A stretch of DNA of 64,000 nt, taken from IMG/VR virus record IMGVR_UViG_3300042890_004094; one strand, 5' to 3'. The notes under the pieces were generated by a model, which was not told the origin of the DNA, made no database searches, and was given only the letters and a program-made list of their open reading frames with translations. The position numbers and the translations under genes are program-made. Positions 3,545 through 41,300 of this stretch are shown one piece after another. The DNA comes from a virus (lineage: Duplodnaviria > Heunggongvirae > Uroviricota > Caudoviricetes). Each line of letters opens with the position of its first letter. Positions within the stretch are counted from its first letter, which is position 1.

Positions 3545-3549
3545 ATTAG

Positions 3550-9875: not shown

Positions 9876-9894
9876 TTTTAATATATAGTTTATG
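9876..9894 (+). promoter_or_regulatory. Conserved promoter-like motif TTTTAATATATAGTTTATG fused to the start codon
   Basis: The 13-mer TATATAGTTTATG, including the ATG, is identical at 9882-9894, 28096-28108, 46307-46319 and, on the minus strand, at 11908-11920. Confidence 0.5.
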
Positions 9895-11910: not shown

Positions 11911-11921
11911 AAACTATATAT
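11908..11921 (-). promoter_or_regulatory. Conserved motif (minus-strand ATATATAGTTTATG) fused to the start codon; contains the TAG stop of smpB
   Basis: Reverse complement of cataaactatatat. Confidence 0.45.
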
Positions 11922-14520: not shown

Positions 14521-14678
14521 TACTTTTCTTTTTTAGTGTTTAAATTTAAAACTTCTGATATGTGATCATTTAATGATCTTCTAACAGAAGAATCAGAAGA
14601 AGTCTGACTTTCATCTTTAACTTCTTCTGATTCTTCTGTTGTTTTTATTTCTTTGTCTTTCATTTCTTTGTATTTCAT
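14520..14678 (-). CDS. Small acidic Ser-rich protein (52 aa) translationally coupled between the sigma factor and the nucleotidyltransferase-like gene; not in the ORF track (below size cutoff)
   Basis: MKYKEMKDKEIKTTEESEEVKDESQTSSDSSVRRSLNDHISEVLNLNTKKEK; TAATG overlaps at both ends. Confidence 0.4.
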   Translation of the reverse strand: MKYKEMKDKEIKTTEESEEVKDESQTSSDSSVRRSLNDHISEVLNLNTKKEK

Positions 14679-16111: not shown

Positions 16112-17958
16112 TATTTTAATAAGTTTTCTAATTCTTCTACTGTTAAGATTACTACTCCAAGTGAAACTGCTTTTGTTTCTTTACTTGAACCTGAACCTTT
16201 AGCTTTCATTACCAAGTATGTTGTCGTTTTAGATACAGAACCTGCAACTTTACCACCACGTGATTCAATTACTTCTTCTAAATCTTTTCTACGAACTCCT
16301 GTGAATACAAATGATTTACCATCTAAATCTGTACCAACTTTTACTGACTCTACTTTTTTAGCAATCGTTATAGGAAGATTTCCTACAAAGGTAAAGAAAT
16401 TATCGTAATTATCCACAAAAACTTTTGCAGAAATTTCAGCAAAACCTTCAATCTCCATAACTTGGTCAACTGTAGGTTTAGTTATAAAGTGTTCTAATAA
16501 AGCTAACTTCTTACTACCTAGACCTCTAAACAAACCTGTAGCGTGTTGAAGTTTAGATAATTGAACATCTGTAACAGATTTTTGAATTGAGCTATAAACA
16601 ATCTGAGCTTTTCTTTTACCAAATCTGTCAATACTCTCTAATTGAGTAGTAGTAACATTTAAAATATCTTCGATAGTTTTATAACCAGCATCCCATAATT
16701 GAGTGATAATACCTTCTGACACATTGTCTGCTTCTAAGATTTCAAAGAAAGCAACATTTTGTTTCAACTTTTGGTCGTCAGTTTCAGTTAAAGTAACTAA
16801 CTCAATACCATTTTCATTCCATGTATAGTCAATTTCGCCATTTGAATCTGTAAGATATGGATATTGAAATTCAACAGTTTCTAATACTTCAACAATCAAT
16901 GGAATAACCATACCACTTCTTTTAACTACAACTTTCGCACCAATTCCTAAACCCATATCTTTTACGAATTTAGCATTATTACCAGTTACGTTAGAAACAG
17001 TAACACCGTCTAATTTAATTGGAGTAATATGTAAAACAGGTTTTAAGAGTCCATGTTTAGAGATATTCCAAGAAATACCTAATACTGTCGCTTCTGCTTT
17101 TTGTTCAAAACTATCGTGCTTAAATGCTCTTGCGTAACAAGGATTGTTAGAAGATGTTTCTCTTCCTAAACTTTCTTGTAGATTAAGATCATTTACTTCA
17201 AGAATTATACCATCGATTTCATAGTCGGTAGACCATCTTTTAAATAATTCTACTAAAAGGTCTTCGGTAATATCTTTTGCAATGAATAAATGATAGTTTA
17301 CTTTAACTTCCTGACCAGAGTTTAACATATCTAATATGTCTGACTTGGTTTTAAAGTTAAATCCTTCATTTGGTATTGCACCATATTTAATAAATTGTAA
17401 GTCTTTTAGTGGATCTGTTACTTCTTTTGAGTTAAGTAAACCAGCAACTAAGTTTCTTGGATTTGCAAACTCTGTTGAGTATTTATCTAAGAAAACTTGT
17501 TTAGGCATTATAACCTCACCATAAGTATATGTGAATACATCACTTTTTAAAGATAAGTGATTTTGTATTAGTTTGTAGTGTTCGTCTGACTTCTGGCCAA
17601 ATTCACCATCACCTCTAGTCCAGGTGTTTGTATTGATTTCGTCATGACATAAAGAAAGTCCGTCATATTTTGGAGTACATACGATTTCAGTATTTGGATT
17701 GATACCTTTTAATCTTAACCATGTGCGTATGTCTTCAATGGTTTTAATTTTATTCATAGAAGCCATATCAATAGGTAGTTTTGATTTTCTTGTTTCGTCA
17801 AGAACTTCAATACCTACTTTAGAAAATATTTCATTTTCTGGGTCATATGAATATAACAATTCAAGTAATGAATCATACTCTTTATCAGACATAATTTCAT
17901 TACCAGTTCTATAAGCAACATTTGCTTCTTCTAATTTTGCTACTATTTTATCTATCAT
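16111..17958 (-). CDS. ligA: NAD-dependent DNA ligase (no Cys4 zinc finger evident)
   Basis: 615 aa; KYDG adenylation motif, ANPRNLVAG, EIDGIILEVN, C-terminal BRCT (KSFVFTGVRRKDLEEVIESRGGKVAGSVSKTT). Confidence 0.9.
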   Translation of the reverse strand: MIDKIVAKLEEANVAYRTGNEIMSDKEYDSLLELLYSYDPENEIFSKVGIEVLDETRKSKLPIDMASMNKIKTIEDIRTWLRLKGINPNTEIVCTPKYDGLSLCHDEINTNTWTRGDGEFGQKSDEHYKLIQNHLSLKSDVFTYTYGEVIMPKQVFLDKYSTEFANPRNLVAGLLNSKEVTDPLKDLQFIKYGAIPNEGFNFKTKSDILDMLNSGQEVKVNYHLFIAKDITEDLLVELFKRWSTDYEIDGIILEVNDLNLQESLGRETSSNNPCYARAFKHDSFEQKAEATVLGISWNISKHGLLKPVLHITPIKLDGVTVSNVTGNNAKFVKDMGLGIGAKVVVKRSGMVIPLIVEVLETVEFQYPYLTDSNGEIDYTWNENGIELVTLTETDDQKLKQNVAFFEILEADNVSEGIITQLWDAGYKTIEDILNVTTTQLESIDRFGKRKAQIVYSSIQKSVTDVQLSKLQHATGLFRGLGSKKLALLEHFITKPTVDQVMEIEGFAEISAKVFVDNYDNFFTFVGNLPITIAKKVESVKVGTDLDGKSFVFTGVRRKDLEEVIESRGGKVAGSVSKTTTYLVMKAKGSGSSKETKAVSLGVVILTVEELENLLK

Positions 17959-18297: not shown

Positions 18298-21200
18298 ATG
18301 GTTCAAAGTTCATTTCCAAAAGTAGCGGATCAAATAATAACGTATAATAAAAATATTGTTGAGATTTTATCTAAAATCAACTCTCTAACAACAACAACAG
18401 ATTCTTCTGTTACTCTTCAAGTGTATGATGAGAATGGTATATTAAGAAATTTTACATTACCTTCTTTTACATCATTGAAAGCAGATATTGATAGATTAAA
18501 TAATAATATCAATTCACTTTATAGTATTGATGCAGCAGGTGCTCTAATTCAAACCTCAACACAAAATAAATACAAAAAGATTATTACAGTTGATTTGAAT
18601 AGAGATCCTACTCCAATTGGAAGCTTAGGTGCTTTGAGTACTTTTAGATCTTCACCTAATTGGTTTTTTGATTCACTTATGGATCCTATGGTCTCAGTAG
18701 AACTTGATTTATCAGGTAAAATTGAGGATAATGTTAGAAAATGTTTGATAAGAAGATATATTGTTGAATTTGCAAAAAATGCAGATGGTTCTTTTACTAC
18801 ACTAGGTCAATCAGCGTTAAATAGTTATAATCAATTATTTAGAGGTAATCCTAATATTATTATATCAGAATTTGAAAACTGGTATACTACAACTACAGGA
18901 CTATTAAATCCAACTAATCCTAAGTATGATGAACAAATGTTTGATTTGGAGCCTAATAATCTATTATATGATGGTCAATTTAGTGTTTTAAGAATACAAG
19001 AAGATAGATTAAATAGAAAACTTTGGTATGTTTTAGATACATTAGATTACTTAGTAGTTGATGCAAACTCAACTAGAAGATTATCTATTGGAGATGAAGT
19101 TATTATAAATTCAGAAAAAACATCAACAAGATATAAAATATTAGAGGTTTCTACTGCAGAATCTAATCCAAGAATTAGAGTAGAAAGACTTGAAGGTATT
19201 GAACCAATTCCAGTTGGAATTGGAACTTTAAAAGTTTATTCATCTGTTATTTATACTAAGAGGGTTAGAGTAAGTGTTGGTTATAATGAAAGAAATGTTC
19301 TTTTTGTTAAACCAGTAAATGCTGATAATAACTTAGTTGCAAAAAAATGGAGTTTAGGTACGGGTTATTATACAAATGACTTGAGACTTACTTCTGACTC
19401 TAGTGCAAATGGATTATCAATGGAACAATTCTATATTGATTATGTTTATGATTATGGTGTTGTTTTACAAGATTTAGTTGCCAAGAAAACACCAAACTCT
19501 TTGGCAGGTACACCTGGTTCCCCAACATTGGCATTAGATAACTTTAAGGTAGTTCAAATAAATAAACATCTTACTGATACTCCTGATTCTAACTTGGTTA
19601 AACAAAAACATAATTATCAGTTATCTTTAAAATCAGAGATACAACAATTACAAGAAGCTATTATATCAAGAAATAAGGCATCAAAATTTACTAAGTTTAA
19701 ATCAGATTCTGCAAAAAAACAGGCAGACTTAGAAGTTGGAGAACTAACAAATAAGAAAGATAGTAAAAGTAAATTACTTGCATCTGTTACTCAAGAAGTT
19801 ATTGACTTATCTAAAGATCCAAAAAATAAAGTTACTCCTAAATTTAGTGTAAGAGGTTTCTGGCCAATTCCAAGTGCTGTAGTTACTACTGGTACTAAAC
19901 CACAAGAGATTGTACAATTTAGAGTTCAATATAGATATACTAGTAAAGATGGTAGAGAAGCACCGGTAGATACTTTTACAATTACAGATTCTCAAAGTAA
20001 AGCTTCTTTTTCTAACTGGACAGAATTTAAAACTGATGCAAGAAAAAGAGAGTATAATACATCAACTGGTGAATATACTTGGGCAATTGAAGATGTTACT
20101 AATGCAGATACACCAAATATTAATCAAATAGATATTCCAATTCAATCTAATGAAAGAGTTGATATTAGAATAAAATCTATCTCAGAAGTTGGTTGGCCAG
20201 AATCTGCAGTTGAATCTGATTGGTCTGAAATTATTACAATTGATTTCCCGGATGATTTAAACACAATTGCTAATGAAAATGATTTTATTTTAACTGCTGC
20301 AACTAAGGAAGACTTAAAAATAAGTATGAATTCAGAACTATCTGCAAAAGGATTAGATAATCACTTAGCAGACACAGTGACAGTAAATAACGTTACATTC
20401 CATCACGATGCAAAGAAGATTTTATCTGGTTTCCAGGATGAGAATGGAGTTTCATTAGACTTATATACTTATATACAAAATTTGGTAGATAGAATTTCAT
20501 CATTAGAAGAGAAAATTACAAGAGCTAAAGGTGAACTTCAGATTATCATTCTTAGAAATAATCAAGAGTACATAGTAAATAATGGTTCTGAAACAACATT
20601 TAATGTTGAGTGTGAAGATTATTTAACTTTATTCAATGGACAAGGTGCACCAACTGGTAGAGTTTATGAAAACAATATTTATGTTATTAAAGATTTTGTT
20701 ATGAAGATTAAAAATAATGCAAAAGAATCATTATTAGGGTTACTATCTAATAGAACATATTTACAAAGTACTGCAGTATATAATACACAAGCACCTCAAA
20801 GTTTTTGGGTAAATAGTCAAGATGAGCTATTGACAAATGATGTTATTGAAACAGGTCAAACAAGAACTCACTTAGATAACCAATTTATTTGGCAAATGAA
20901 CTATGATTCTATTACACAAAATACTGTGGCAAAATTATCTGAAAATATAGGTAATACATTTGATAATGCTACTGTAAATTCAAACTCTATAACAAATGTA
21001 CTTTCAACCAGTGATTATAATGTTGGTTATAATGAGCCAGCTATATTAAAATTTATTGGTAATAATAAATCTTTATTAGATCCATCAAAATGGAATGATG
21101 TGACTGTTTCAATTGCATCAACAACTAAGTTCTTAACGACTATACATCCAGTAGTTAAAAGTTTAGAAAACATACAAGAAAACAATAGTGATAAGGTTAA

Positions 21201-21504
21201 GACTATAAATGTTGGTGATAAAAGTTCTATTATAGTTCCACTAAATATTTATTTCAAACTTAATTCATTAGATAATAGTCAAACAGGATTAAATTATCAA
21301 TATATTGATCTTAATAATTCAACAAGAACTGTAAAACATGTTAAGAAAATTAAATTTTTCCTAGAAAATGAGTCAGAGAATAGACCATTTATATTTACAT
21401 TAAAATTTAACTTAAATAGAAATAAAGTTATTGTAAGAAAGTTCAACTCAACCGGTGGTAGTCCAGCATATATAGATGATTGGTCAACATCAAGTAAAAA
21501 ATAA
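18298..21504 (+). CDS. Large hypothetical protein (1068 aa), probably structural
   Basis: Long ORF with Asn/Ser/Thr-rich composition; first gene of a plus-strand block of large proteins. Confidence 0.7.
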   Translation: MVQSSFPKVADQIITYNKNIVEILSKINSLTTTTDSSVTLQVYDENGILRNFTLPSFTSLKADIDRLNNNINSLYSIDAAGALIQTSTQNKYKKIITVDLNRDPTPIGSLGALSTFRSSPNWFFDSLMDPMVSVELDLSGKIEDNVRKCLIRRYIVEFAKNADGSFTTLGQSALNSYNQLFRGNPNIIISEFENWYTTTTGLLNPTNPKYDEQMFDLEPNNLLYDGQFSVLRIQEDRLNRKLWYVLDTLDYLVVDANSTRRLSIGDEVIINSEKTSTRYKILEVSTAESNPRIRVERLEGIEPIPVGIGTLKVYSSVIYTKRVRVSVGYNERNVLFVKPVNADNNLVAKKWSLGTGYYTNDLRLTSDSSANGLSMEQFYIDYVYDYGVVLQDLVAKKTPNSLAGTPGSPTLALDNFKVVQINKHLTDTPDSNLVKQKHNYQLSLKSEIQQLQEAIISRNKASKFTKFKSDSAKKQADLEVGELTNKKDSKSKLLASVTQEVIDLSKDPKNKVTPKFSVRGFWPIPSAVVTTGTKPQEIVQFRVQYRYTSKDGREAPVDTFTITDSQSKASFSNWTEFKTDARKREYNTSTGEYTWAIEDVTNADTPNINQIDIPIQSNERVDIRIKSISEVGWPESAVESDWSEIITIDFPDDLNTIANENDFILTAATKEDLKISMNSELSAKGLDNHLADTVTVNNVTFHHDAKKILSGFQDENGVSLDLYTYIQNLVDRISSLEEKITRAKGELQIIILRNNQEYIVNNGSETTFNVECEDYLTLFNGQGAPTGRVYENNIYVIKDFVMKIKNNAKESLLGLLSNRTYLQSTAVYNTQAPQSFWVNSQDELLTNDVIETGQTRTHLDNQFIWQMNYDSITQNTVAKLSENIGNTFDNATVNSNSITNVLSTSDYNVGYNEPAILKFIGNNKSLLDPSKWNDVTVSIASTTKFLTTIHPVVKSLENIQENNSDKVKTINVGDKSSIIVPLNIYFKLNSLDNSQTGLNYQYIDLNNSTRTVKHVKKIKFFLENESENRPFIFTLKFNLNRNKVIVRKFNSTGGSPAYIDDWSTSSKK

Positions 21505-21513
21505 TAGTTTAAA

Positions 21514-24500
21514 TTGAAAAGTTTTGGTTTATTAAGAACAAATGTTGGATTGACAACAAATATTAAGGTTACGATTGATACTAACTATAAATTTAGTTTA
21601 GATAGTATTGAATCTGATCCTAACTTATCTTTTGACAAATTTAAAAAAGTTAGTTTCACTAAAGATAATTACTATGATGAGTTGATTCCATACTTTTACA
21701 AAGATTTACCTGCAGATACCGCATTCTCAATTAAATATGACAATGATGTTGATACAATGTCAAATGATTTCAGAAATCAATATGATGAATTATATAGTTA
21801 CGGTGCACGTAATATAGTTAATAATAAAAACTATAGTGAAGAGTATGAGTATTTTGCACCTTTATACATCACTAAAAATCATTTACCTAAAAAATTTATT
21901 ATTTTTAGAGTTGATGGTTCTGGTATTGGAACAACAGATAGAAGTAATTTTAATGCAGAAATAATTAAGAAACTAAAGACAGTTAAACTATTTGATTTAA
22001 GTAAACAAAGTGTATTAGGTGATTGGTTAGGAAAGAATTTTACAGATAATAAATACTTCCCAGATTCTCCATTGGATATAGATTTTAGAAATTTAGAATT
22101 TTGTAGATGGAATGGTATAGATTATCAGAATGGTGGATATACATATAAATCTTTATTTATTGATGATATATTAGATGAGGAAAAAGAAATATTTGAACTT
22201 GAAAAGTTTATATTTGACTCTTATAAAAATAATAAAGTTGTTTTTCCAAATATAATAAACTTCTCATTTTTATTTGATGATACTCCATCTACTCCAGAAA
22301 TTAAAAAAAAGTGGTCTATAAATAGATATTATGGATTTTATTTAAACGATTTAGAATTGGTTAAAACTGTTTCACCATATTTATCAATACCTTTAAGAAG
22401 TGATATTATTATTCAGAATAATGCTGTAATTGGTGGTGATACAAATTCGGTATCAAATATAATTTACTCACCAAGTAATGAAAATCCATTTCTTCAAGAG
22501 TGGTCAAACAAAAGACCATTTTATGTAGAGTATGATGGAAACTACTATAAAGTAGAAAAATTTACTGAGACTGTTTCAAATCAATTGGTTAAAATTCCTA
22601 ATACATTTACTACTATGGAAAGTAGAATGTCTAAAGACTTAGGATTTAGTTCATCAAAATTTAATAAAAATGCAAGTGTTATTAAAAAATCAGTTACTAC
22701 AAATACTAAATCAGCAGTAGAGGATTTTGGTGATGTTATTGTTACTAAATATAAAATAATAACTAACCTAAATTTGACCGGTTTAACTGCGTCAAGTTTT
22801 AATCAGAACTATGCAGAAATAGATCCTACTAATAAACTAATTACTAGGGATGGTAGTACAATAAAAGATTTTCAGATAGCAGGATTTGACAGTGCAGATG
22901 TTTGGATAATTGAAATTGATGGTATATATCACAATTTAGTTAATATAGATAATTATATAATGCTTAGCACAGACTACTCTTTTATTTTTAACCAAAATGA
23001 TTTCATATATAAAGTTCGTGGAGAATCAAAAAAAGTTAGTACAGTAGTTGATTTTAATAATGCACCTAAAAAGTTTTCAATTTATAAACTTAATTTTTGT
23101 GATATAAAAGATTTTGATACAAGAATTGTTGATACTGATTATTCTAAATATGAATATGAAGAGTCTACAAATATTACTACTACAGATGAGACAAAAATGT
23201 ATTTAGAAGATATAAGAAGTTTAACAGATCCTATAAATTTAGATGATTTTAGCTATCAAAATAGAATAGTTAATATACCAACCTCTTCTGAATATACTGC
23301 TAACTATGAAACATTCAAAATAGATGGTAATGATCTATCTGAGATATGGAGAAAAAATCCTGTTTATTGTAAATGGGGATTTCATAAATCACTTTCAGCA
23401 AATGATTTACCATACACTTTAAATAACTCTTTAATCTTTGAGGATTTTAATAGAACTACTAATGTTTATGAACCGTATCCTAAAAGATCTGAAAGAAATT
23501 TAGATTATTTCTATACAATAAACTCTGCATCGTCATCATATGTTTATCATAGTTTACATATAGAAAATTTAGATAATAATAACAATATAGATACTGAATT
23601 TAAGTTTGAGTTAAATAAGTATTTAAACTTTACCTATTCATATTTTGATAGTATAACATCAACAACACAATCAACATCACCATATCCATATGATTATTTC
23701 ACATATTTATTTGGTAAGTCCAATACTTTCTTTAATGGTAAGATTAAAGAAAACTCTAATAAGTATTCTTATTTTAATGTTGGTGATGAGTCTGTACCAA
23801 ATCATACTTTATTTAGAGGTATAAAATTTGATATTTATGAGGTTAGTAGTATTACAATAAATACAAATAATCAAATTGATAAAATCAATATAAAGTCATC
23901 TAACACATTTGATGATTATAAGTTTTCAGTTTTATTATCAGAAAACAATACTTCACCAATATTTGATACTTTAGATAGTAGTAAAATAACAGGACTTGTA
24001 TATTCACCTAATACTCTTATGTGGTCTGTTATAGATGAGTGGAAAATGAATAAAAGATATGTCGGTGGTACAAGTTGGGCAGGTGCATCAAAAGTTTTAC
24101 ATGATGATATTTTATATGGCAAGTATGGTAATTCAAGTACTACTAATAATCCAATATTTGCAACATATGGTGTTACAATACCTTCTGCACCATATACACA
24201 GGGTTGGACTTTTTTTGTTAGTAATAATGATTCAGTTTTTTGGTCACCTAACTATAATGGTTATACATCATTAGTGGGACCAACTGCAGCAGCCACTGGT
24301 GAGGTTTTACCATTTGGTTATAAATTACAAGAGCCTAATAAACCATCAATTGTATATAATTCTGGTGAATATTACTTTTGTTCATCACAATCTAATGCTA
24401 TTGACTTTTGGAATCCACTAAAATCTATTTCAACTGGTTATATGTCACAGGATACCGTTATTTATAAGAATAATTACTATACATCACTAAAGGATAATAA

Positions 24501-25788
24501 TTACTTTAAACCAACAATGAATACTTGGACTGCATCCACTGGAGTTACATCAGCAAAATGGAAAATAATAGAATCCTGGAATGCAACAAAACAATATTAT
24601 TGGAATGATAATGTTGTTTATAATGAAAGTGTATATAAACTTTATACATCCAATTCAGATAATATTTCTTTATCTGATGGTATTCCTCCAGTTGGTACTG
24701 AACCAGTTAAGTCAAAAGGTTTCTGGTTTAGAAATAATGGAAAGTCATTTAATTCAATAAGTGTAACAAGTTCAATAGTAAAATTTAATAATAAATATAA
24801 TATCTTAGTAGGTGGTGGAAAAACAACAACTAGTAGTCTTAATAATGGCATTATTATTTATATAAATAAAAAGTGGAAAAATATACTAGTAAATATAAAT
24901 ATAAGTGATGGTACAACACCAGATATATCTAACTCAAATAGAGATAGTTTATATAATGATATAAATCAAAAACTAACCGCTGCTAATTTTATAAATGCGA
25001 TCAATGATATTAGTAATAAATATGGTTTTAGTAACTATCTATCATATGTTGTTGTTGATGAAAATAATAATATAAAAAAATATAGTTATTCAGATGTTGA
25101 TGGTGGTAATATTAAAGATCTACCATATTTATTAAGATGTGAAGAACCTGATAAATTAGATATTAAAGTAAATTCATTATTTAAAAGAGCAGTCGAACTT
25201 CCAAATACACTAAATCCAATTAGAAAGTTGGACTCTGGAAGAATAGTAGATATAACTCAACTAAACTACTTCAATAATATTCCAGTTGCTGCGAACATTA
25301 TCGAAAATCAATTTCCACCTAAAGTATTTGAGAATTATCACGGTAATACTAATATTATAAAAAATGAAATTTATAGATATAGTGGATATTATAGTCCGGT
25401 ATTCTATGATGTACAACTATTTGAAAGAGATTCTAATGGAATACCTTCAGGTGGTAATTATAAATTTGATACTTTATTAAATGATTTTGGTATAATGAAA
25501 GAAAGAAAAATTAGAAAAGTAAATAGAAAAGGAAACATACTAAGATTAGGTAATGTAAATGATGAAAAATCAATATATCCTATGTTAGATGAATTTGGAT
25601 ATTCTATCTATGACTTTTTTATATTCTCATCAACCTGGGATTTAAAGTATTATTTAGAAACAGTTTCTGTTAGTAAAAATAAAGATTATTTACAAAGATA
25701 TACTATTGATGAAAATGTAATAAATGCAGTTGATATAGTAACCCCAATTGTAATACCATCTAATATAGGAAAAACACAGGATAATTAA
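21514..25788 (+). CDS. Large hypothetical protein (1424 aa); start codon uncertain (track start is TTG; first ATG is 81 codons in)
   Basis: Very long ORF beginning 10 nt after the TAA-TAG double stop of the upstream gene. Confidence 0.65.
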   Translation: MKSFGLLRTNVGLTTNIKVTIDTNYKFSLDSIESDPNLSFDKFKKVSFTKDNYYDELIPYFYKDLPADTAFSIKYDNDVDTMSNDFRNQYDELYSYGARNIVNNKNYSEEYEYFAPLYITKNHLPKKFIIFRVDGSGIGTTDRSNFNAEIIKKLKTVKLFDLSKQSVLGDWLGKNFTDNKYFPDSPLDIDFRNLEFCRWNGIDYQNGGYTYKSLFIDDILDEEKEIFELEKFIFDSYKNNKVVFPNIINFSFLFDDTPSTPEIKKKWSINRYYGFYLNDLELVKTVSPYLSIPLRSDIIIQNNAVIGGDTNSVSNIIYSPSNENPFLQEWSNKRPFYVEYDGNYYKVEKFTETVSNQLVKIPNTFTTMESRMSKDLGFSSSKFNKNASVIKKSVTTNTKSAVEDFGDVIVTKYKIITNLNLTGLTASSFNQNYAEIDPTNKLITRDGSTIKDFQIAGFDSADVWIIEIDGIYHNLVNIDNYIMLSTDYSFIFNQNDFIYKVRGESKKVSTVVDFNNAPKKFSIYKLNFCDIKDFDTRIVDTDYSKYEYEESTNITTTDETKMYLEDIRSLTDPINLDDFSYQNRIVNIPTSSEYTANYETFKIDGNDLSEIWRKNPVYCKWGFHKSLSANDLPYTLNNSLIFEDFNRTTNVYEPYPKRSERNLDYFYTINSASSSYVYHSLHIENLDNNNNIDTEFKFELNKYLNFTYSYFDSITSTTQSTSPYPYDYFTYLFGKSNTFFNGKIKENSNKYSYFNVGDESVPNHTLFRGIKFDIYEVSSITINTNNQIDKINIKSSNTFDDYKFSVLLSENNTSPIFDTLDSSKITGLVYSPNTLMWSVIDEWKMNKRYVGGTSWAGASKVLHDDILYGKYGNSSTTNNPIFATYGVTIPSAPYTQGWTFFVSNNDSVFWSPNYNGYTSLVGPTAAATGEVLPFGYKLQEPNKPSIVYNSGEYYFCSSQSNAIDFWNPLKSISTGYMSQDTVIYKNNYYTSLKDNNYFKPTMNTWTASTGVTSAKWKIIESWNATKQYYWNDNVVYNESVYKLYTSNSDNISLSDGIPPVGTEPVKSKGFWFRNNGKSFNSISVTSSIVKFNNKYNILVGGGKTTTSSLNNGIIIYINKKWKNILVNINISDGTTPDISNSNRDSLYNDINQKLTAANFINAINDISNKYGFSNYLSYVVVDENNNIKKYSYSDVDGGNIKDLPYLLRCEEPDKLDIKVNSLFKRAVELPNTLNPIRKLDSGRIVDITQLNYFNNIPVAANIIENQFPPKVFENYHGNTNIIKNEIYRYSGYYSPVFYDVQLFERDSNGIPSGGNYKFDTLLNDFGIMKERKIRKVNRKGNILRLGNVNDEKSIYPMLDEFGYSIYDFFIFSSTWDLKYYLETVSVSKNKDYLQRYTIDENVINAVDIVTPIVIPSNIGKTQDN

Positions 25789-25789
25789 A

Positions 25790-26488
25790 ATGAGAAGAAG
25801 CTATATATCACCAGAATATCAAAATAGAGCTGTTTATGGAACATTAAACATGGTTGAAGAAAGTACCTTCTTTGGTGCTAAAATGCTTGAGGTAGAAGAT
25901 ACTATAAGTATAGATAATCAAGATATTATTTACTATCAAAGAACAAGTGGAGAACAATTAGATGTTTCAACTGAAACATCATTAGATTCATATATTTATT
26001 CACCTGGTAGTAATACTGGTGATAAATTTAAAAATCATACTTTGATTATTGATGCGACTCAACCAAATTTTCAATTAGATAACAATACTAAATGGATATT
26101 GACTATTGATCTAAAAACAATACTTACTAATTACTTATTTGCAACACTTAAAAAATATAGAACTTTTGAAGGTGTTAGAAATGATATGACAATGTTTAAT
26201 GATGTAAATGTTGCAGTAACTAGTTATATACGTTCAAATGTTTTAGATAGATATAAGTATAAAGGTGTGGAACTTTATGTAAGATACCAAGATCTAAGAA
26301 ATCAAAATTTACTTAGGTATAATAATACTTGGTCAACTAACATAATAGATCCTACTTATAAAGTAACTAAGATTCAAAGTGAGACAGAGTTTGACCAATC
26401 TTCAATTAAAATAATGTTTAATCAAGAAAAACCAAGTTCTTCTTATAAATTTGAGTATTACTTCAATATTTTATTTGAGAAAATATAA
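25790..26488 (+). CDS. Hypothetical protein (232 aa)
   Basis: ORF starting 2 nt after the previous stop. Confidence 0.6.
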   Translation: MRRSYISPEYQNRAVYGTLNMVEESTFFGAKMLEVEDTISIDNQDIIYYQRTSGEQLDVSTETSLDSYIYSPGSNTGDKFKNHTLIIDATQPNFQLDNNTKWILTIDLKTILTNYLFATLKKYRTFEGVRNDMTMFNDVNVAVTSYIRSNVLDRYKYKGVELYVRYQDLRNQNLLRYNNTWSTNIIDPTYKVTKIQSETEFDQSSIKIMFNQEKPSSSYKFEYYFNILFEKI

Positions 26489-26520
26489 ACCTTATCATTT
26501 AATTACTTATAATATGTAGT

Positions 26521-26886
26521 ATGAATAACGAGGAATTAAATGAAATTTTAGCAAACTTTTTAAAGATGTTTAAGAATAGACCTTATCATCTAGCAAAATA
26601 CCTTATTGAAAACTCTGCTCTAAATAAACCATTCTTAAATAAAATAGCAAAAAGTGCTAAATTAAATAATCCTAAAAATCAGGATGTTTATCTAACTAGT
26701 ATTTCTGAAATGGATGATTTTTACAATTCTATTTTAGATCCGGTAAAAATAGGTAATAAAACTTTAGAAGAAGTTACTAAAGAAGTAAATGATAAAATGG
26801 ATGAGCTTATTAAAAATGAAAAGTTTGAAGAAGCTGCAAAACTTAGAGACTATATGTTAAAAAAATCTATAAAAAGAATTAAATAA
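26521..26886 (+). CDS. Small protein with UVR-like motif (121 aa)
   Basis: ...NEKFEEAAKLRDYM... resembles the UvrB/UvrC UVR domain. Confidence 0.5.
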   Translation: MNNEELNEILANFLKMFKNRPYHLAKYLIENSALNKPFLNKIAKSAKLNNPKNQDVYLTSISEMDDFYNSILDPVKIGNKTLEEVTKEVNDKMDELIKNEKFEEAAKLRDYMLKKSIKRIK

Positions 26887-26937
26887 TTTAAAACTTTTTA
26901 ATAATTCACACTAAAACTTAAACACTAAAAAAAAATT

Positions 26938-28026
26938 ATGACAAACGAAATTTTAAACCCAGAAGTAGGAAACCCAGATTTTGAACTTTTATTTGAAGAA
27001 AAAAGTTACAGAAAGGGTAAGAATATGAGTGATAAAGACTTAGATGCTCTTTATAACTCTATTAAATTAGAAATACCACAAGTAGGTAATGTGGTTAGAT
27101 CTAGTTACCGAGGTATTATGGCTAATCAGTTTGTATTCAGTGTTGACGGATTCAAAGATGATGTCAGAGTTGAAGACAAACCAAATGAGGCCAAGTACCT
27201 TAAAAATTGCAACACTGGAGATGAGGTTGATGTTTTAATTACCGAGATAAATCAAGGTCAATATTTCATCAAAGGAAGCATTGCTTCACTATATGAGTCA
27301 AGAGCTCACGAAAACCTTAAATCTTTAGAGGAAGGAGAATCAGTAACTGCTTATGTAAGATCACTTAACCCAGCAGGTTACGATGTTGAAATCACAAATG
27401 GAGGAGTAACTCTTCCTGGATTTATGCCAAATACCTTAGCAGGTATCAACAAACTTTACGACCCAACTTCAATCGTTGGTGATACATTCCAAGTAATGAT
27501 CGAGTCTTTCTCAGAACATGAAGGAACTTATATCGTAAGTCGTAGAAAGTATCTACAAACATTGATTCCACAAGAAATTGGTAATCTTGAGTTTAACACC
27601 TTATATGGTGGTAGAGTAACTGGAACAACACCATTCGGTATCTTTGTTGAGTTCAACGAGTGCTTAACTGGTATGATTCACAAAGCTAATGTTACAGAAG
27701 AATGGCAAAACAGAATCTCCGAAATTAAACCAGGACAAGAGATTGAGTTCTATATTAAAGAAATCATTAAAGAGAAGATAATTCTTACTCAAGTCTTGAG
27801 AGAAACACTTTGGGATAACATCAAAAACGGTCAAGTTATTGATGGTCGAGTGAAAGATGTAAAACAATTTGGAACTTTAGTAATCTTAGATGATGAAACA
27901 GTTGGACTAATACACACTTCAGAAATGGAGAAATTAGGCAAAAAGTTTGTATCTGGGCAAGACATCAAAGTAAAAGTTCTTTCTGTAGATCGTCAAAGTC
28001 GCAAGATTTTCTTAACGATTGGATAA
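26938..28026 (+). CDS. Multi-S1-domain RNA-binding protein (ribosomal protein S1-like)
   Basis: 362 aa with several S1-like units, e.g. GRVTGTTPFGIFVEFNECLTGMIHKANV and DGRVKDVKQFGTLVILDDETVGLIHTSEM...GQDIKVKVLSVDRQSRKIFLT. Confidence 0.65.
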   Translation: MTNEILNPEVGNPDFELLFEEKSYRKGKNMSDKDLDALYNSIKLEIPQVGNVVRSSYRGIMANQFVFSVDGFKDDVRVEDKPNEAKYLKNCNTGDEVDVLITEINQGQYFIKGSIASLYESRAHENLKSLEEGESVTAYVRSLNPAGYDVEITNGGVTLPGFMPNTLAGINKLYDPTSIVGDTFQVMIESFSEHEGTYIVSRRKYLQTLIPQEIGNLEFNTLYGGRVTGTTPFGIFVEFNECLTGMIHKANVTEEWQNRISEIKPGQEIEFYIKEIIKEKIILTQVLRETLWDNIKNGQVIDGRVKDVKQFGTLVILDDETVGLIHTSEMEKLGKKFVSGQDIKVKVLSVDRQSRKIFLTIG

Positions 28027-28063
28027 TTAAAAACGACCCATTTTTAAATGAAAGAGCAAAAAG

Positions 28064-28090
28064 AACCCTGGAGAAATCTGGGGTTTTTTT
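28064..28090 (+). terminator. Weak hairpin followed by a T7 run
   Basis: aaccc-tggagaaatctg-gggtt-ttttt. Confidence 0.4.
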
Positions 28091-28108
28091 ATTTATATAT
28101 AGTTTATG
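28091..28108 (+). promoter_or_regulatory. Conserved motif ATTTATATATAGTTTATG fused to the start codon
   Basis: Identical 13-mer TATATAGTTTATG. Confidence 0.5.
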
Positions 28109-37047: not shown

Positions 37048-37065
37048 TTATTTAATTATTTTTGA

Positions 37066-37083
37066 TAAACTATATATTAAATA
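37066..37083 (-). promoter_or_regulatory. Conserved motif (minus-strand ATTTAATATATAGTTTAT) 18 nt upstream of the start of 36490..37047
   Basis: Same motif family; shows the motif is not always fused to the ATG. Confidence 0.45.
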
Positions 37084-38352: not shown

Positions 38353-41300
38353 ATGAGTTCAACAAATTTAGTGAAAAAGAATTTATTCACCAAACCTTAT
38401 TTAATAACCTTAGATGAATTAAATCAAATTGGCCAAGATATTAATTTAGTAGGATATGATCCCCAATTAAATCTAACAAGTGATGATACAAATGTCGTTT
38501 TAAAATATGGTATACCTTGTAGTCCTAAACTTTTAAATTGGGTTGAACCTTATAAAGTTGCAGGTATTGATTATACATTATTCTATACAGAAGTTAACTC
38601 TGGATTTAGTATAGGAGATAGAGTATTTATAATTAATGGTACTTATGATAGTAATTTACTAATAACAAGTGATAAGTATAAAAAGGGTCATGATGGTTAT
38701 AAAGTTCTGTTTGTAGATAAATGTCAAGTTGTATTAGATATAGAATTTAATGGTAGTTTACCAAGTAACGAAGGAACAGAACCAAGTGATGACTTAGATA
38801 ATCTAATTAAAGTTTATTATATTAAAGATCAGAATGATTTTATTCATGTAAATAGACAAATTACAACTCGTGGTGGTGATTTTGATTATAGATTTAATAA
38901 GAATCAAAATAATATAATATTTGCACCAGCACAGAGTTATAATGTAACTGGTGCTTGGGGTGAATCATTAGGTTTAACTGGTGGTCCTGGATTTTTTATT
39001 AAAAATGGAACTTCGAGTTGGATAAATATAAGTAATGGCTTTATAATTGGTTCCTATTCTATTGCGGCTACTGCAAGTGCCAACAAAATACTGATATTAA
39101 ATAATAGTTTTGATTATTCAGGTGTAAGTTTTCTAGAAAATTTAGTTTATAGTTACGAAACAACAGGTACTTTTTCTGGTTGGCAAGTAAATGTAAAACA
39201 TGAAAATAAAAATGTTCCTTTAATATCTAAATCTAATTTTAGAAATGGTACATTTAATGGAAATTGGAATGGTGGTATTTATGGTAGTAATGATAAAAGA
39301 ATTACTTGGGGTTCTACCTCATCTATTTGGAACTCAGGTACTTTATTAAATACTATTTGGGAAAATGGTATAATGGAATCTAAACAAAGTCAACCACAAA
39401 GTTTTGTTGCAGAATTTGATAATATTGTGGGTACTTTTGGTGCACCATACCAAAAATCAACTAATCCAGATAATGACGGATATGGTTATAACTTTGTTAT
39501 AAACTCAGAAATAAGAAATGCAATTATCAATAATGCAAATGTTAGTAATTCAATACTAGGTACATCATCTACCTCAATTTCAATTGTAGAGAAACATTTG
39601 GAAGGAACATTGACACCGCAGTTTATTCAAACTTACTTTAACGATACTCTTATAAATAAGGCTTATTTTGAAAGTTGTGGTATTCAAAATGCAAATATAC
39701 AAAACTCTGTTGTAAAAAATTCAAGAGTAGAAAATAGTAGATTTTATAATGTTAAGTCAATAAATACACAATATAAAAAATCTTTATTTAAAAACTCTAA
39801 TTATATTAGTGATAATTCAATAAGAATATTACACTTTGAGGAAACAGATTTTGCAGAAGGTAATTTACCAACTAGTCCTAGAACCCATAAAATTTATAAA
39901 TTTTATATAAATAAAAGAAGTTATGAGAAGTTTAAATTTAAGGACTCTTTTTATATAAAGGGATTAAAAATAAATAGTAATACTACTTCATTACTTAACT
40001 TCTTTGATAAGAAGTTTAAAATGGGTCCATATATTGATTATATTGATCAATTTGATAGTTTTTCTAAAAAATGGTATAAAAGAGGATTTGAGTATAACTG
40101 TATGATTTCAACTCCCAAAGATAATGATTATTTATCAGATGTTAATACAACTAGTCCTTTAAATTCAAATATTGTGACCATTAAAGATAATTTTGGTTAT
40201 TCTATTGATATTTTTGTTAAGATTGCAGATATTAAAAATTTTAATATTACATTACCTAGTTATACAACCCCAGATGTTATTATTGATTATTCAGATGCTT
40301 ATATTTTAAACTCTGATTTTGAAAGTGGTATCTTTGAAAATTCTAATTGGAATAGTGGAAATCATTTTAATTTTAGTAATGATGTGAATATAAAAATTGG
40401 TGATAATTATGTTGAACCGATTTGGAATTTGGATAATAAGTTTGGAAATCTTTCAGATAGTGGTGGATATTATAATATGTCATTAGTTGACGGAACATCA
40501 TCTATAAATGTTAAAACTCTTTATTCAGTTAATGATAGTCAGAGCAATGACTTGTATATAAATGGTAGATATCCTGAATTGGAAGAAGATTACTTGGCGT
40601 TAAACGAAATAGTATTTTTAAATGCAGTCGATTATGATACTAGAGGAAAAGTAACTGGTATTTCTTTCTCTGGCACTGGATCAAATTATACAGTTGCTAC
40701 TGAACTAGCAACTGCATATACTGGAGAAGGAACAGGACTAACTGTTGATATTACTGCAAGTACTATTGGTCAGGTAACAGGTTTCGGCATACTATCTGAA
40801 GGTTCTGGACACCCAAATGATAATACCTACGATTATGAAACCTATAATGCAACCTCTCCAGGATTTGGATTACAATTTAGTATGTATGCGGGAAATACTT
40901 CTTCTATAACGATTGTAAATGGTGGTCAAAATTATACGGTAGGTGCTACAGTATCTATGTTAAGAGATGAATTGACCCCTACCGCAACTAATGATATTCT
41001 TCTTATTACTTCAGTAAATAATGGTGCTGTTTTATCGGTGAATATTAATTATCCTGGCTTGGGTTATTCAAATGGTGATATACTAACGATTATTCAACCC
41101 CCATTAGGAGGTAATGCAACATTTTCAGTAACTGGTATAACAGGATCTTTAACTAGATTACCGGATCAATATAAAATAGTAGAAGAACAATCAAGAGGTA
41201 GTTATAAATTACAAGAAATTATTGCAACTGGCTCAACTAGTATTTTACCTGGATTAACTGCAGGTGGTAAATTTAGTTCTTATGATGCAAATAATAGATA

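What the first reader, a model, noticed from the sequence alone, without database searches (positions are those of the whole stretch)
26938..28026. Ribosomal protein S1-like multi-S1-domain protein encoded in the element
The 362-aa ORF contains at least three recognisable S1 folds. The last is near-canonical (G-x-V-x-G-x-V-x-x-I-x-x-F-G-x-F-V-x-L...G-L-x-H-x-S-E...V-K-V-L-x-V-D). S1 is the ribosomal protein most often found in viral genomes. Combined with leaderless, SD-less mRNAs it may help recruit host ribosomes to the element's transcripts.
Basis: partly seen in the sequence, partly recalled or inferred. Interest (0 to 1): 0.55.

Follow-up and report, generated by a model that had tools for sequence, protein, structure and literature searches.

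The report
Huge-phage short ribosomal protein bS1
A giant bacteriophage carries its own shortened copy of ribosomal protein S1, which helps bacterial ribosomes catch messenger RNAs; it keeps the parts that dock to the ribosome and bind RNA, but such genes were already reported in huge phages in 2020.

Summary
The 362-aa ORF at 26938..28026 (+) is real. It has four S1/OB folds, not three, behind a short N-terminal tail and helix (AF2 pLDDT 92.9). It is a true bS1 derivative, not a generic S1-domain protein. A 99-member family profile aligns end to end with E. coli bS1 residues 7-346 (E=8e-77) and with a Flavobacterium-type bS1 (E=5e-65). Its domains 1 and 2 match only the ribosome-docking domains 1 and 2 of bS1. 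The Zn-pocket lysine and OB2 aromatics are conserved family-wide. dN/dS is 0.06-0.08. Domains 5-6 are missing, which is the part E. coli can lose without harm.

The window is a new relative of the 634-735 kb 'Mahaphage' genomes, which are predicted to infect Bacteroidota. The gene belongs to a deep, monophyletic phage lineage (133 clusters at 50% identity). Diverged members keep the N-terminal extension seen here only in Bacteroidota bS1.

The window's genes are SD-less with A-rich leaders (confirmed). Only a few look leaderless, and the S1 gene does not. 'S1 is the commonest viral ribosomal protein' is not supported by the literature read (bS21 and bL12 are). Al-Shayeb et al. 2020 reported possible rpS1 in these phages, so this is a new member of a known kind. 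Ribosome binding remains untested.

The parts
26887..26937 (+). 51-nt A-rich, G-free, SD-less leader / intergenic spacer upstream of the S1 gene (...CACTAAAACTTAAACACTAAAAAAAAATT|ATG)
   Evidence: Sequence read. No SD core is present. The gene is therefore not leaderless.
26938..28026 (+). CDS of the 362-aa phage bS1-like protein (stop codon included)
   Evidence: ORF. (bS1 homology). (dN/dS 0.055-0.078 against close relatives).
26938..27027 (+). N-terminal tail, residues 1-30, with the acidic/aromatic motif G11-N-P-D-F15-E-L-L-F19-E-E...Y24-R-K-G27; low model confidence
   Evidence: pLDDT 50-56. Family columns: F15 is F/L/I/V in 68%, F19 is F/L/I/Y in 75%, E20 is E in 46%. In diverged family members this region is significantly similar to the Bacteroidota bS1 N-terminal extension F[DN]W..[YF]E.G. 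For the window's own subclade the link is only weak (hhalign P=0.0085, probability 4.7%).
27028..27069 (+). Helix before D1 (residues 31-44, model helix 32-41, ...KDLDALYNSI...), positional equivalent of the uS2-binding N-terminal helix of E. coli bS1 (F5-A-Q-L-F9-E-E)
   Evidence: pLDDT about 90. The family profile aligns it with E. coli residues 7-13 and with Flavobacterium 'NLQEFEELV'. L38 is L/M in 72% and Y39 is Y/F/L in 82% of the family.
27070..27291 (+). OB1 (residues 45-118), orthologue of bS1 domain 1; includes K73, the equivalent of E. coli K43, which inserts into the uS2 Zn pocket
   Evidence: Domain HMM scores 34.6 bits against bS1 D1 and <=20.1 against D2-D6. K73 is K/R in 91% of the family. 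The role of K43 is from PMC10123108.
27322..27552 (+). OB2 (residues 129-205), orthologue of bS1 domain 2; motif A-G-Y148...F162-M-P-N-T-L-A-G-I-N-K-L, compare E. coli G-G-F120...A-F130-L-P-G-S
   Evidence: Domain HMM scores 42.7 bits against bS1 D2 and <=14.7 against the others. Y148 is aromatic in 97%, F162 is F in 96%, P164 in 98% and N171 in 97%.
27580..27801 (+). OB3 (residues 215-288), canonical RNA-binding S1 fold and the most conserved region of the family (V-T-G-T-T-x-F-G-V-F-V-E-F-N-x-C-L-T-G-M-I-H-K)
   Evidence: Mean column conservation is 0.58, the highest of all regions. F233 is F/Y in 90%, F236 is F in 98%, H248 is H in 77%. Best match is to bS1 D4/D5/D3 (33.8/30.9/23.3 bits).
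27814..28023 (+).
   Evidence: Best Pfam S1 stretch is 296-361. It scores 54-56 bits against bS1 D3/D4/D5. F311 is F/Y in 80%.
28059..28097 (+). Intrinsic terminator directly after the S1 stop codon (14-pair stem, 4-nt loop, T-run); closes the co-oriented block 18298-28026
   Evidence: 3 terminator-like sites in the region against 0.7 expected. The stem is kept through compensatory and wobble changes in relatives L093 and L094.
28091..28108 (+). Promoter-like motif TTTATATATAGTTT abutting the ATG of the next gene (28106); marks the start of the next transcription unit
   Evidence: The same motif follows the terminator in L093 and L094, but there the start codon lies about 20 nt further downstream.
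18298..26886 (+). Four co-oriented, tightly spaced upstream genes (1068 aa = phrog_29329 of unknown function; 1424 aa; 232 aa; 121 aa with a UVR motif) that form a conserved block with the S1 gene
   Evidence: The same order is found in LR745206 and on a 639.6-kb scaffold and a 99-kb contig. That they form an operon is inferred from spacing and the single downstream terminator.

Best explanation
The gene encodes a phage-lineage descendant of bacterial ribosomal protein bS1, cut down to the N-terminal docking helix plus OB domains 1-4. During infection of a Bacteroidota host it most likely occupies the bS1 site on the host 30S subunit. The pre-D1 helix and OB1 (K73, equivalent to E. coli K43) would dock on uS2, and OB2 would sit at the mRNA exit channel. 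OB3-OB4 would bind the A-rich, Shine-Dalgarno-less leaders typical of this phage's genes and deliver them to the decoding channel. It would either supplement or replace the loosely bound, exchangeable host bS1, and so keep or bias initiation towards phage messages.

Shown here: bS1 orthology of D1 and D2, conservation of docking and RNA-binding residues, loss of D5-D6, purifying selection, SD-less A-rich leaders, and phage genomic context.

Inferred: physical binding to host 30S, and any preference for phage mRNAs.
For: (1) Collinear full-length homology to bS1. NCBIfam rpsA models cover residues 30-361. The family profile matches E. coli bS1 residues 7-346 at E=8e-77 and Flavobacterium-type bS1 residues 8-371 at E=5e-65, while other S1-domain enzymes match only one domain at E>=5e-10. 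The Foldseek top hits are bS1 chains.
(2) Domain-specific orthology. Phage D1 matches bS1 D1 (34.6 bits against <=20.1) and phage D2 matches bS1 D2 (42.7 against <=14.7). In E. coli these two domains anchor bS1 to uS2/30S (PMC10123108).
(3) Docking residues are kept family-wide. K43->K73 is K/R in 91%, F120->Y148 is aromatic in 97%, and F130->F162 is F in 96%. The helix L38/Y39 corresponds to L8/F9.
(4) RNA-binding aromatic and His positions of D3 and D4 are conserved.
(5) The architecture matches the experimentally defined functional core. In E. coli D5-D6 are dispensable and D1-D3 retain 30S binding, mRNA binding and melting (PMC3858243). Lak-phage homologues stop after D3.
(6) dN/dS is 0.055-0.078. 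The lineage is deep and monophyletic, with 133 clusters at E<1e-30 and 200/200 bootstraps.
(7) Context. 2 of 44 genes have an SD core, and upstream A content is 50-66%. The window also holds 13 tRNAs, TyrRS and SmpB. The relatives are 460-735 kb phage genomes.
(8) bS1 is easily lost from Flavobacterium johnsoniae ribosomes during purification, and is thought to be especially important where SD pairing is not used (PMC7797042).
Against: No experiment bears on this protein or any family member. It is only 20-25% identical to any cellular bS1 and scores 100 bits against a 577-bit equivalog cutoff. In the window protein the two helix phenylalanines of E. coli (F5, F9) are L35 and Y39, and K117 of OB2 is P145. 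Its own N-tail is not significantly similar to the Bacteroidota extension (2.2 bits; hhalign probability 4.7%). How bS1 docks on a Bacteroidota ribosome has not been seen, because there was no bS1 or uS2 density in the F. johnsoniae structure. The AF2 model is unusually compact (pTM 0.80), unlike flexible cellular bS1, so it may behave differently. Host bS1 is presumably still present, so the benefit of a second copy is unexplained.
Confidence: 0.6

Rival explanations
1. It works off the ribosome as an RNA chaperone or cofactor. The four-OB protein binds A/U-rich phage RNA to protect it or remodel it. Alternatively it activates a phage nuclease or polymerase, as host S1 does for T4 RegB and for Q-beta replicase.
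For: S1 has documented extraribosomal roles with phages: RegB activation, the Q-beta replicase subunit, and lambda beta protein (summarised in PMC13157829). D3 is the most conserved region of the family. The model is compact (pTM 0.80). Al-Shayeb 2020 explicitly leaves open 'on or off the ribosome'. The gene sits in a conserved block with large proteins of unknown function, not with translation genes.
Against: Off-ribosome RNA binding would not require keeping the bS1-specific D1 and D2 types or the uS2 Zn-pocket lysine across a family that has diverged to about 30% identity. That said, in Q-beta replicase it is D1-D2 that bind the beta-subunit, so D1/D2 retention is not fully exclusive. No RegB-like or replicase-like partner was found next to the gene.
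Confidence: 0.2
2. It is a competitive decoy. By occupying the uS2 site it displaces full-length host bS1 and down-shifts translation of host leadered mRNAs, while the phage genes that are leaderless escape.
For: D1-D2 docking features are conserved. D5-D6 are missing. A promoter-like motif abuts the ATG of four window genes, which is compatible with leaderless transcripts. Ribosomes lacking functional S1 are proposed to favour leaderless mRNAs, and S1 overexpression displaces them (PMC3858243).
Against: D3 and D4 keep the RNA-binding residues and D3 is the most conserved domain. In E. coli a D1-D4 protein is functional, not inhibitory. About 90% of window genes, including the large ones, have A-rich leaders or are internal cistrons, not leaderless. 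In relatives the same motif lies about 20 nt upstream of the ATG.
Confidence: 0.1
3. It is a helper of a phage-encoded trans-translation system, presenting tmRNA to stalled ribosomes together with the phage SmpB.
For: SmpB is encoded about 15 kb away in the window (173.9 bits). bS1 has been implicated in trans-translation (cited in PMC13157829).
Against: No tmRNA is found in the window by ARAGORN or Rfam. SmpB and S1 are not adjacent or co-oriented. Nothing in the sequence points specifically to tmRNA binding.
Confidence: 0.05
4. It is a host (cellular) rpsA gene, or assembly contamination, and not a phage gene.
For: Some 'phage' database records do contain bacterial rpsA, for example the Acinetobacter, Staphylococcus and Escherichia 'phage' records.
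Against: The same gene block occurs in LR745206 (634.8 kb), on a 639.6-kb scaffold and on several other contigs. The family is monophyletic, about 360 aa long and only 20-25% identical to any cellular bS1. Cellular Bacteroidota bS1 is about 590-830 aa. Window GC is about 28% with phage-like content throughout.
Confidence: 0.01

Closest known systems
'Possible rpS1' genes of huge phages (Mahaphage clade), Al-Shayeb et al. 2020, Nature 578:425 (PMC7162821); closest sequences LR745206 (65.9% aa) and LR756502 (61.8%); UniProt/BFVD A0A8D9CG03 '30S ribosomal protein S1 [uncultured marine phage]' (48%)
   Same: Same protein family, same length class and same conserved gene block. The same link to genomes without Shine-Dalgarno sequences and to predicted Bacteroidota hosts.
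   Different: The window is a new genome: only 7% of a 20-kb stretch aligns to LR745206, at 76% nt identity. The paper states that 'true' rpS1 is hard to confirm. The domain-specific orthology, docking-residue conservation and N-terminal extension shown here go beyond what that main text describes.
Bacterial ribosomal protein bS1 (rpsA), six-domain Gram-negative type: E. coli (PDB 6h4n_y, 9gut_B) and Flavobacterium-type (PDB 9zcd_A)
   Same: N-terminal helix plus OB1-OB4 are collinear. OB1 and OB2 are of the specialised bS1 types. The K43, F120 and F130 equivalents are kept, as are the RNA-binding residues in OB3 and OB4.
   Different: It lacks OB5-OB6 and the C-terminal tail and is 20-25% identical. 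It falls below the NCBIfam equivalog cutoffs (100 against 577 bits). The F5 equivalent is not aromatic in the window protein, and K117 is replaced by P145. It is predicted to be compact, not a flexible chain of domains.
E. coli rpsA deletion alleles lacking D5-D6 or D4-D6 (Duval et al. 2013, PMC3858243)
   Same: The domain content is identical to the delta-5-6 protein. The Lak-phage homologues match delta-4-6. In E. coli the delta-5-6 protein supports growth with limited effect, and D1-D3 retain all activities on the 30S.
   Different: Those are laboratory truncations of a host protein. This is a natural, long-diverged viral lineage, and its activity is untested.
Four-domain S1 of Firmicutes (PRK06676; IspH/S1 fusion NF000907)
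   Same: Similar length and four S1 domains. NF000907 gives the top NCBIfam score for the window protein (114.9 bits). The NJ tree groups the phage family with Firmicutes in 63% of bootstraps.
   Different: Pairwise scores of the phage family are clearly lower against Firmicutes S1 (mean 35.8 bits) than against Bacteroidota (61.9) or Proteobacteria (47-51), although 16 Bacteroidota references were compared with one or two per other group. The tree grouping joins the two longest branches and is probably long-branch attraction. Firmicutes S1 lacks the F[DN]W extension.
bS1 of jumbo cyanophage PhiMa05 (ISME J 2026, PMC13157829)
   Same: Another phage-encoded bS1 proposed to replace the host protein.
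   Different: It is an independent acquisition; that paper's trees group it with Vampirovibrio ribosomal proteins. It lies within a cluster of six ribosomal protein genes. AF3 gave pTM<0.5 for it, whereas this protein models at pTM 0.80.

Membership tests
Ribosomal protein bS1 (rpsA) | Four to six tandem S1/OB domains, collinear with rpsA | tested here: met
   Four OB folds in the AF2 model. One collinear alignment to E. coli bS1 residues 7-346 and to Flavobacterium-type bS1 residues 8-371. rpsA models cover residues 30-361.
Ribosomal protein bS1 (rpsA) | Specialised first domain (OB1) that docks on uS2, including the loop-2 lysine (E. coli K43) that enters the uS2 Zn pocket | tested here: met
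   The family D1 HMM scores 34.6 bits on bS1 D1 against <=20.1 on D2-D6. K73 aligns with K43 and is K/R in 91% of 99 family members.
Ribosomal protein bS1 (rpsA) | Specialised second domain (OB2) with the conserved aromatic pair (E. coli F120, F130) and the A-F-L-P-G-S motif | tested here: met
   The D2 HMM scores 42.7 bits on bS1 D2 against <=14.7 elsewhere. Y148 is aromatic in 97%, F162 is F in 96% and P164 is kept in 98%. K117 is not conserved (P145).
Ribosomal protein bS1 (rpsA) | N-terminal amphipathic helix with two aromatic residues (E. coli F5, F9) that stack on uS2 F32 | tested here: inconclusive
   A confident helix at 32-41 lies at the right distance before D1 and is aligned by HMMER with E. 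coli residues 7-13. The window has L35/Y39 and the family mostly has Y34...L38-Y39. The alignment register is ambiguous. A second candidate, F15-x3-F19-E-E, lies in the low-confidence tail.
Ribosomal protein bS1 (rpsA) | Score above the curated NCBIfam equivalog cutoff | tested here: not met
   TIGR00717 gives 100 bits against a cutoff of 577. The best model, NF000907, gives 114.9 against 624. The shortfall comes from the missing D5-D6 and from 20-25% identity.
Ribosomal protein bS1 (rpsA) | RNA-binding C-terminal domains (OB3 onwards) with the canonical aromatic and His surface | tested here: met
   F233, F236 and H248 in D3 and F311 in D4 are conserved in 77-98% of the family. The Pfam S1 match is significant. 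Only OB3-OB4 are present; OB5-OB6 are absent.
Ribosomal protein bS1 (rpsA) | Physical, exchangeable association with the 30S subunit and stimulation of initiation | not testable with these tools
   This needs co-sedimentation, cryo-EM or toeprinting.
Bacteroidota-type bS1 | N-terminal extension F[DN]W[DE]x[YF]E.G ... EELEKxYDxTL ahead of D1 | tested here: inconclusive
   The extension is present in 72 of 80 Bacteroidota rpsA genes and absent from the five non-Bacteroidota bS1 examined. An HMM of it hits 9 of 99 phage-family N-termini at >=10 bits (best E=4e-6), against 0 of 990 shuffled and 0 of 99 reversed. The window protein itself scores 2.2 bits and its subclade gives hhalign P=0.0085. The OB-core NJ tree does not place the family with Bacteroidota (15 of 200 bootstraps).
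S1-domain ribonucleases and helicase-type proteins (PNPase, RNase R/II, RNase E/G, Tex) | A catalytic or other core domain next to a single S1 domain | tested here: not met
   No such Pfam domain is present. The NCBIfam matches to PNPase and RNase R cover only the S1 part, at <=50 bits against cutoffs of 471-598. PDB profile matches are single-domain, at E>=5e-10.
Small S1-domain regulators (GSP13/CvfD/Ygs; CvfB) | One S1 domain of about 120 aa, or for CvfB three S1 domains plus a winged helix | tested here: not met
   These models match only residues 293-361, at 76-78 bits against cutoffs of 117-148. CvfB_2nd scores 19.1 against a cutoff of 27. The CvfB-like structure 3go5 has a TM-score of 0.16.

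The most novel reading that the evidence does not exclude
The megaphage runs a two-tier translation programme. A compact, D5-D6-less viral bS1 re-equips host 30S subunits for A-rich leadered phage messages, while a separate set of genes behind the TTTAATATATAGTTTA promoter-like element is expressed as leaderless or near-leaderless mRNAs that do not need S1. The viral bS1 lineage, which descends from an ancient Bacteroidota rpsA and keeps its phylum-specific N-terminal extension, would then be a host-range-linked, ribosome-specialising factor, and not just a spare part.
Probability: 0.12. Interest if true: 0.7.

Novelty: new member of a known kind. Interest (0 to 1): 0.38.

Why it matters
How ribosomes choose start codons in Bacteroidota is unsettled: the anti-SD sequence is sequestered and bS1-mRNA contacts are suspected to be central. 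A naturally minimised, strongly conserved viral bS1 (helix plus OB1-OB4, or OB1-OB3 in Lak phages) marks which parts of bS1 matter in that setting. It also gives a compact, well-folding protein for biochemical and structural work on SD-independent initiation and on phage takeover of translation. For huge-phage biology, the analysis answers a caveat raised when these genes were first reported, that 'true' rpS1 could not be told apart from generic S1-domain proteins. On sequence and model evidence this is a true bS1 derivative.

Tried and rejected
(1) PHROGs gave no significant match for the protein.

(2) The search for related loci with the 99-sequence family alignment failed for lack of a conserved stretch. 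The replacement query, Flavobacterium plus E. coli bS1, returned only Bacteroidota loci. Outgroups therefore had to come from mis-filed 'plasmid' chromosomes. Two of those (Calothrix L091, Streptomyces L092) proved not to be rpsA and were dropped.

(3) The NJ/Kimura tree on 315 columns resolves only the monophyly of the phage family (200/200). Its sister group is unresolved and probably affected by long-branch attraction. No maximum-likelihood program was available.

(4) I first took the window's D-F-E-L-L-F-E-E (14-21) for the E. coli F5-A-Q-L-F9-E-E helix. The HMMER alignments instead place the E. coli helix opposite residues 34-41 and the DFELLFEE motif opposite the Bacteroidota-specific extension. 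I keep both as candidates.

(5) The three long top-150 hits (774-811 aa) are unrelated proteins with 7-8 S1 domains.

(6) A tmRNA partner for the window's SmpB was sought and not found.

(7) The sigma-70 consensus scan around the gene found fewer promoter-like sites than in shuffles (16 against 22.9), so it is uninformative for this AT-rich phage.

(8) The exact motif plus ATG is absent from relatives, which showed that adjacency to the ATG is not conserved.
Full report
OBSERVATION. The ORF at 26938..28026 (+) exists as described: ATG start, 362 aa. Pfam S1 (PF00575) is significant (78.9 bits, E=3.7e-22), but only two stretches pass on their own. Full-length NCBIfam rpsA models align collinearly with residues ~30-361. 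TIGR00717 positions 19-342 of 516 correspond to bS1 domains 1-4, yet the score is far below the equivalog cutoff (100 against 577 bits). PHROGs has nothing. An AlphaFold2 model built on a 99-sequence family alignment is confident (mean pLDDT 92.9, pTM 0.80). It shows four OB folds (strands 52-114, 136-201, 223-284, 300-361), a confident helix at 32-41, and a poorly defined tail at 1-30.

WHAT THE ELEMENT IS. The window has ~28% GC. It carries a 13-tRNA array, a TyrRS, a YqeY-like protein, SmpB, an ECF-type sigma factor, an NAD-dependent ligase, a 1093-aa protein with a type IX secretion (CHU_C) domain, DnaJ, Sir2, CoaE and peptidases, together with several 1000-1900-aa ORFs without Pfam matches. 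By tblastn the S1 protein is closest to the manually curated huge-phage genomes LR745206 (634.8 kb, 65.9%), LR756502 (61.8%), LR756504/501/503 (40-43%) and LR756500 (31%), and more distantly to the Lak megaphages. At the DNA level only 7% of a 20-kb stretch aligns to LR745206, at 76% identity. The window is therefore a new relative of the Mahaphage clade. Al-Shayeb et al. 2020 predict that the members of that clade above 634 kb infect Bacteroidetes (PMC7162821). The gene order 1068 aa - 1424 aa - 232 aa - 121 aa (UVR motif) - S1 is conserved in LR745206, on a 639.6-kb scaffold and on a 99-kb contig.

IS IT bS1 OR JUST AN S1-DOMAIN PROTEIN? Al-Shayeb et al. left this question open ('difficult to confirm true rpS1'). 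Four lines of evidence say it is a bS1 derivative.

(i) A profile of 99 diverse family members matches E. coli bS1 in one collinear alignment, chain residues 7-346, which is the N-terminal helix through domain 4 (E=8e-77). It also matches the 591-aa Flavobacterium-type bS1 9zcd_A over residues 8-371 (E=5e-65). PNPase, RNase R, Tex and DHX8 match only through a single domain, at E>=5e-10.

(ii) Foldseek against the PDB puts bS1 chains first (9gut_B E=6e-24, 360 columns).

(iii) Per-domain HMMs are specific. Phage D1 scores 34.6 bits on bS1 D1 against <=20.1 on D2-D6. Phage D2 scores 42.7 on bS1 D2 against <=14.7 elsewhere. Phage D3 and D4 are generic RNA-binding S1 folds of the D3-D5 type. D1 and D2 are the domains that anchor bS1 to uS2 and the 30S (PMC10123108).

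(iv) Residues that make those contacts in E. coli are kept across a family that has diverged to ~30% identity. K43 (uS2 Zn pocket) corresponds to K73, which is K/R in 91%. F120 corresponds to Y148, aromatic in 97%. F130 corresponds to F162, F in 96%, within a conserved F-M-P motif. Helix positions L38/Y39 correspond to L8/F9. K117 is not kept, and the F5 equivalent is L35 in the window protein. The canonical RNA-binding positions of D3 and D4 are conserved, and D3 is the most conserved region.

THE LINEAGE. An exhaustive search of 1.84 billion cluster representatives finds 133 clusters at E<1e-30, and nearly all of the best 150 are 340-420 aa. The word-indexed search finds hundreds of close homologues, some on contigs of 400-656 kb. 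BFVD already holds members named '30S ribosomal protein S1 [uncultured marine phage]' (48% identity, E=1e-48). In an NJ tree with 16 Bacteroidota, 3 proteobacterial and 2 Firmicutes bS1, the phage family is monophyletic in 200/200 bootstraps. Its sister group is unresolved: phage+Firmicutes against Bacteroidota+Proteobacteria gets 63%, phage+Bacteroidota gets 7.5%. The window protein is 20-25% identical to every cellular bS1. The grouping of the two longest branches looks like long-branch attraction. Pairwise HMMER scores favour Bacteroidota (mean 61.9 bits) over Proteobacteria (47-51) and Firmicutes (35.8), although more Bacteroidota references were used.

An independent character points to Bacteroidota. 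72 of 80 Bacteroidota rpsA genes carry an N-terminal extension F[DN]W[DE]x[YF]E.G...EELEKxYDxTL. It is absent from the E. coli, Acinetobacter, Rhodobacter, Enterococcus and Acetoanaerobium proteins. An HMM of that extension alone hits 9 of 99 phage-family N-termini at >=10 bits (best E=4e-6), against none of 990 shuffled and 99 reversed controls. Examples are SFDWDAYEKS, VEFDWEAYENED and EDFNWEEYENVG, each followed by YAQELYDLY. The window's own tail (GNPDFELLFEEKSYRKG...KDLDALYNSI) aligns collinearly but weakly, with hhalign P=0.0085 and probability 4.7%. So the Bacteroidota origin is a family-level inference, from a sample of only five non-Bacteroidota sequences. Lak-phage homologues end after D3 with an acidic, Ala-rich tail.

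FUNCTIONAL STATE AND EXPRESSION. dN/dS against three close relatives is 0.055-0.078. The gene has a 51-nt A-rich, G-free leader. It is the last gene of a co-oriented, tightly packed block that begins at 18298. A strong intrinsic terminator follows at 28059-28090, and its stem is preserved through compensatory and wobble changes in relatives. Immediately after the terminator lies the element TTTA(T/A)ATATAGTTTA. In this window it abuts the ATG of four genes (9892, 11910 on the minus strand, 28106, 46317). There are 6 matches with <=2 mismatches against 1.87 expected, and 1 of 100 shuffles reaches that number. In relatives the same element lies ~20 nt upstream of the start codon, and the exact motif plus ATG is absent from all fetched loci. 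It is best read as a promoter-like element that would give leaderless or short-leader transcripts for a minority of genes. This is an inference without transcript data.

SD AND LEADERLESS CLAIMS. Only 2 of 44 window genes have GGAG/GAGG/AGGA at -20..-4, the same as random positions (5.4%). Upstream A content is 50-66% and G is 2-9%. That fits Bacteroidota-type initiation, in which the anti-SD is sequestered and bS1-mRNA contacts are suspected to be important (PMC7797042). It also fits the correlation reported for huge phages with possible rpS1. The 'leaderless' part is weaker, since most genes are leadered or internal cistrons. In E. coli, S1 overexpression displaces leaderless mRNAs from ribosomes, and ribosomes lacking S1 are proposed to favour them (PMC3858243). 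The statement that S1 is the ribosomal protein most often found in viral genomes is not supported. Mizuno et al. name bS21 and bL12 as the most common and set the S1 domain aside as ambiguous (PMC6375957).

MECHANISM. In E. coli the last two domains are dispensable for growth, deleting D4-D6 still allows slow growth, and D1-D3 retain 30S binding, mRNA binding and RNA melting on the subunit. The phage architecture (helix + D1-D4, and D1-D3 in Lak) coincides with that functional core. The best-supported reading (confidence ~0.6) is a ribosome-bound initiation factor-like protein. It would dock on uS2 through the helix, OB1 and K73, and feed A-rich SD-less phage leaders to the 30S through OB3-OB4, supplementing or replacing the exchangeable host bS1.

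The rivals are as follows:
- An off-ribosome RNA chaperone or enzyme cofactor, analogous to host S1 with T4 RegB or Q-beta replicase (0.2).
- A competitive decoy that favours leaderless phage messages (0.1).
- A helper of phage SmpB-dependent trans-translation (0.05). No tmRNA is present in the window.
- Cellular contamination, which is effectively excluded.

An unexplained difference from cellular bS1 is the high pTM (0.80). It implies a defined arrangement of the four domains, whereas another group could not model a phage bS1 above pTM 0.5.

NOVELTY AND VERDICT. Phage-encoded possible rpS1 in exactly this clade, and its link with missing SD sequences, were published in 2020, and family members are already annotated as S1. 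The finding is therefore a new member of a known kind. This analysis adds computational evidence that the family is a true bS1 derivative: D1/D2 orthology, docking residues, an N-terminal extension shared with Bacteroidota bS1, and a precise truncation to the functional core. Ribosome binding remains untested. Interest 0.38.

Noticed in passing
window 9880-9894(+), 11908-11922(-), 28094-28108(+), 46305-46319(+), 37064-37078(-), 58628-58642(-); L093 ~7165-7180, L094 ~4155-4170: A conserved element, TTTAATATATAGTTTA, abuts the ATG of four genes. After the S1 gene it directly follows the intrinsic terminator. In relatives it keeps that position, but the start codon is ~20 nt downstream. It is likely a phage promoter that gives leaderless or short-leader mRNAs. 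It does not match the host-type sigma-70 consensus scan.
   Followed up: partly
window 2039-3622 (-): A dense tRNA array. ARAGORN finds 13 (Ser x3, Arg, Trp x2, His x2, Lys x3, Phe x2). Rfam finds 12, including one at 2039-2122 that ARAGORN did not list. Several isoacceptors are duplicated.
   Followed up: no
window 11914-12345 (-): A phage-encoded SmpB (Pfam 173.9 bits), but no tmRNA gene in the 64-kb window by ARAGORN or Rfam. Its RNA partner must be elsewhere in the genome, or the host's.
   Followed up: partly
window 7978-9638 (-): A tyrosyl-tRNA synthetase (264.6 bits) immediately followed by a YqeY-like protein. These are further translation-related cargo near the tRNA array.
   Followed up: no
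window 4141-7422 (-): A 1093-aa protein ending in a CHU_C type IX secretion sorting domain. From general knowledge this signal is characteristic of Bacteroidota, which independently hints at the host phylum.
   Followed up: no
L005 2503-3633 and L006 2428-3549 (Lak-B5, Lak-C1): The Lak megaphage homologues of this protein have an insertion-bearing D1, then D2 and D3, then an acidic, Ala-rich tail in place of D4. They keep an F-D-W motif and SHESYAQDLYDAY in the N-terminus. This is a natural 'D1-D3 only' bS1.
   Followed up: partly
window 26521-26886 (+): A 121-aa protein with a UvrB/UvrC (UVR) motif lies directly upstream of the S1 gene and is syntenic with it in every relative examined (LR745206, ERZ19026131 scaffold, JGI 3300024346 contig). 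It is a possible functional partner of unknown role.
   Followed up: no
window 18298-25788 (+), 38353-44088 (+), 46317-50960 (+), 58659-62474 (-): Very large ORFs (1068-1911 aa) without Pfam domains. Only the 1068-aa one matches a PHROG, phrog_29329 of unknown function (E=3e-90). The two upstream of S1 may be co-transcribed with it.
   Followed up: partly
model mf20c8fe7595e (window 26938-28023): AlphaFold2 gives pTM 0.80 for a four-domain protein, which implies a fixed inter-domain arrangement. Cellular bS1 is notoriously flexible, and whole-chain TM-scores to bS1 structures are only 0.34-0.47.
   Followed up: no
window 14678-15280 (-) and 16111-17958 (-): An ECF-like sigma factor (regions 2 and 4) and an NAD-dependent DNA ligase with a BRCT domain. 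The sigma factor could be the one that recognises the TTTAATATATAGTTTA element.
   Followed up: no
L007-L086 (Bacteroidota rpsA loci): Bacteroidota bS1 proteins carry a conserved N-terminal extension, F[DN]W[DE]x[YF]E.G...EELEKxYDxTL, often preceded by long acidic or low-complexity leaders (proteins up to ~830 aa). It is absent from the five non-Bacteroidota bS1 examined. The ribosome paper I read reports no bS1 density, so the role of this extension has not been seen structurally.
   Followed up: partly
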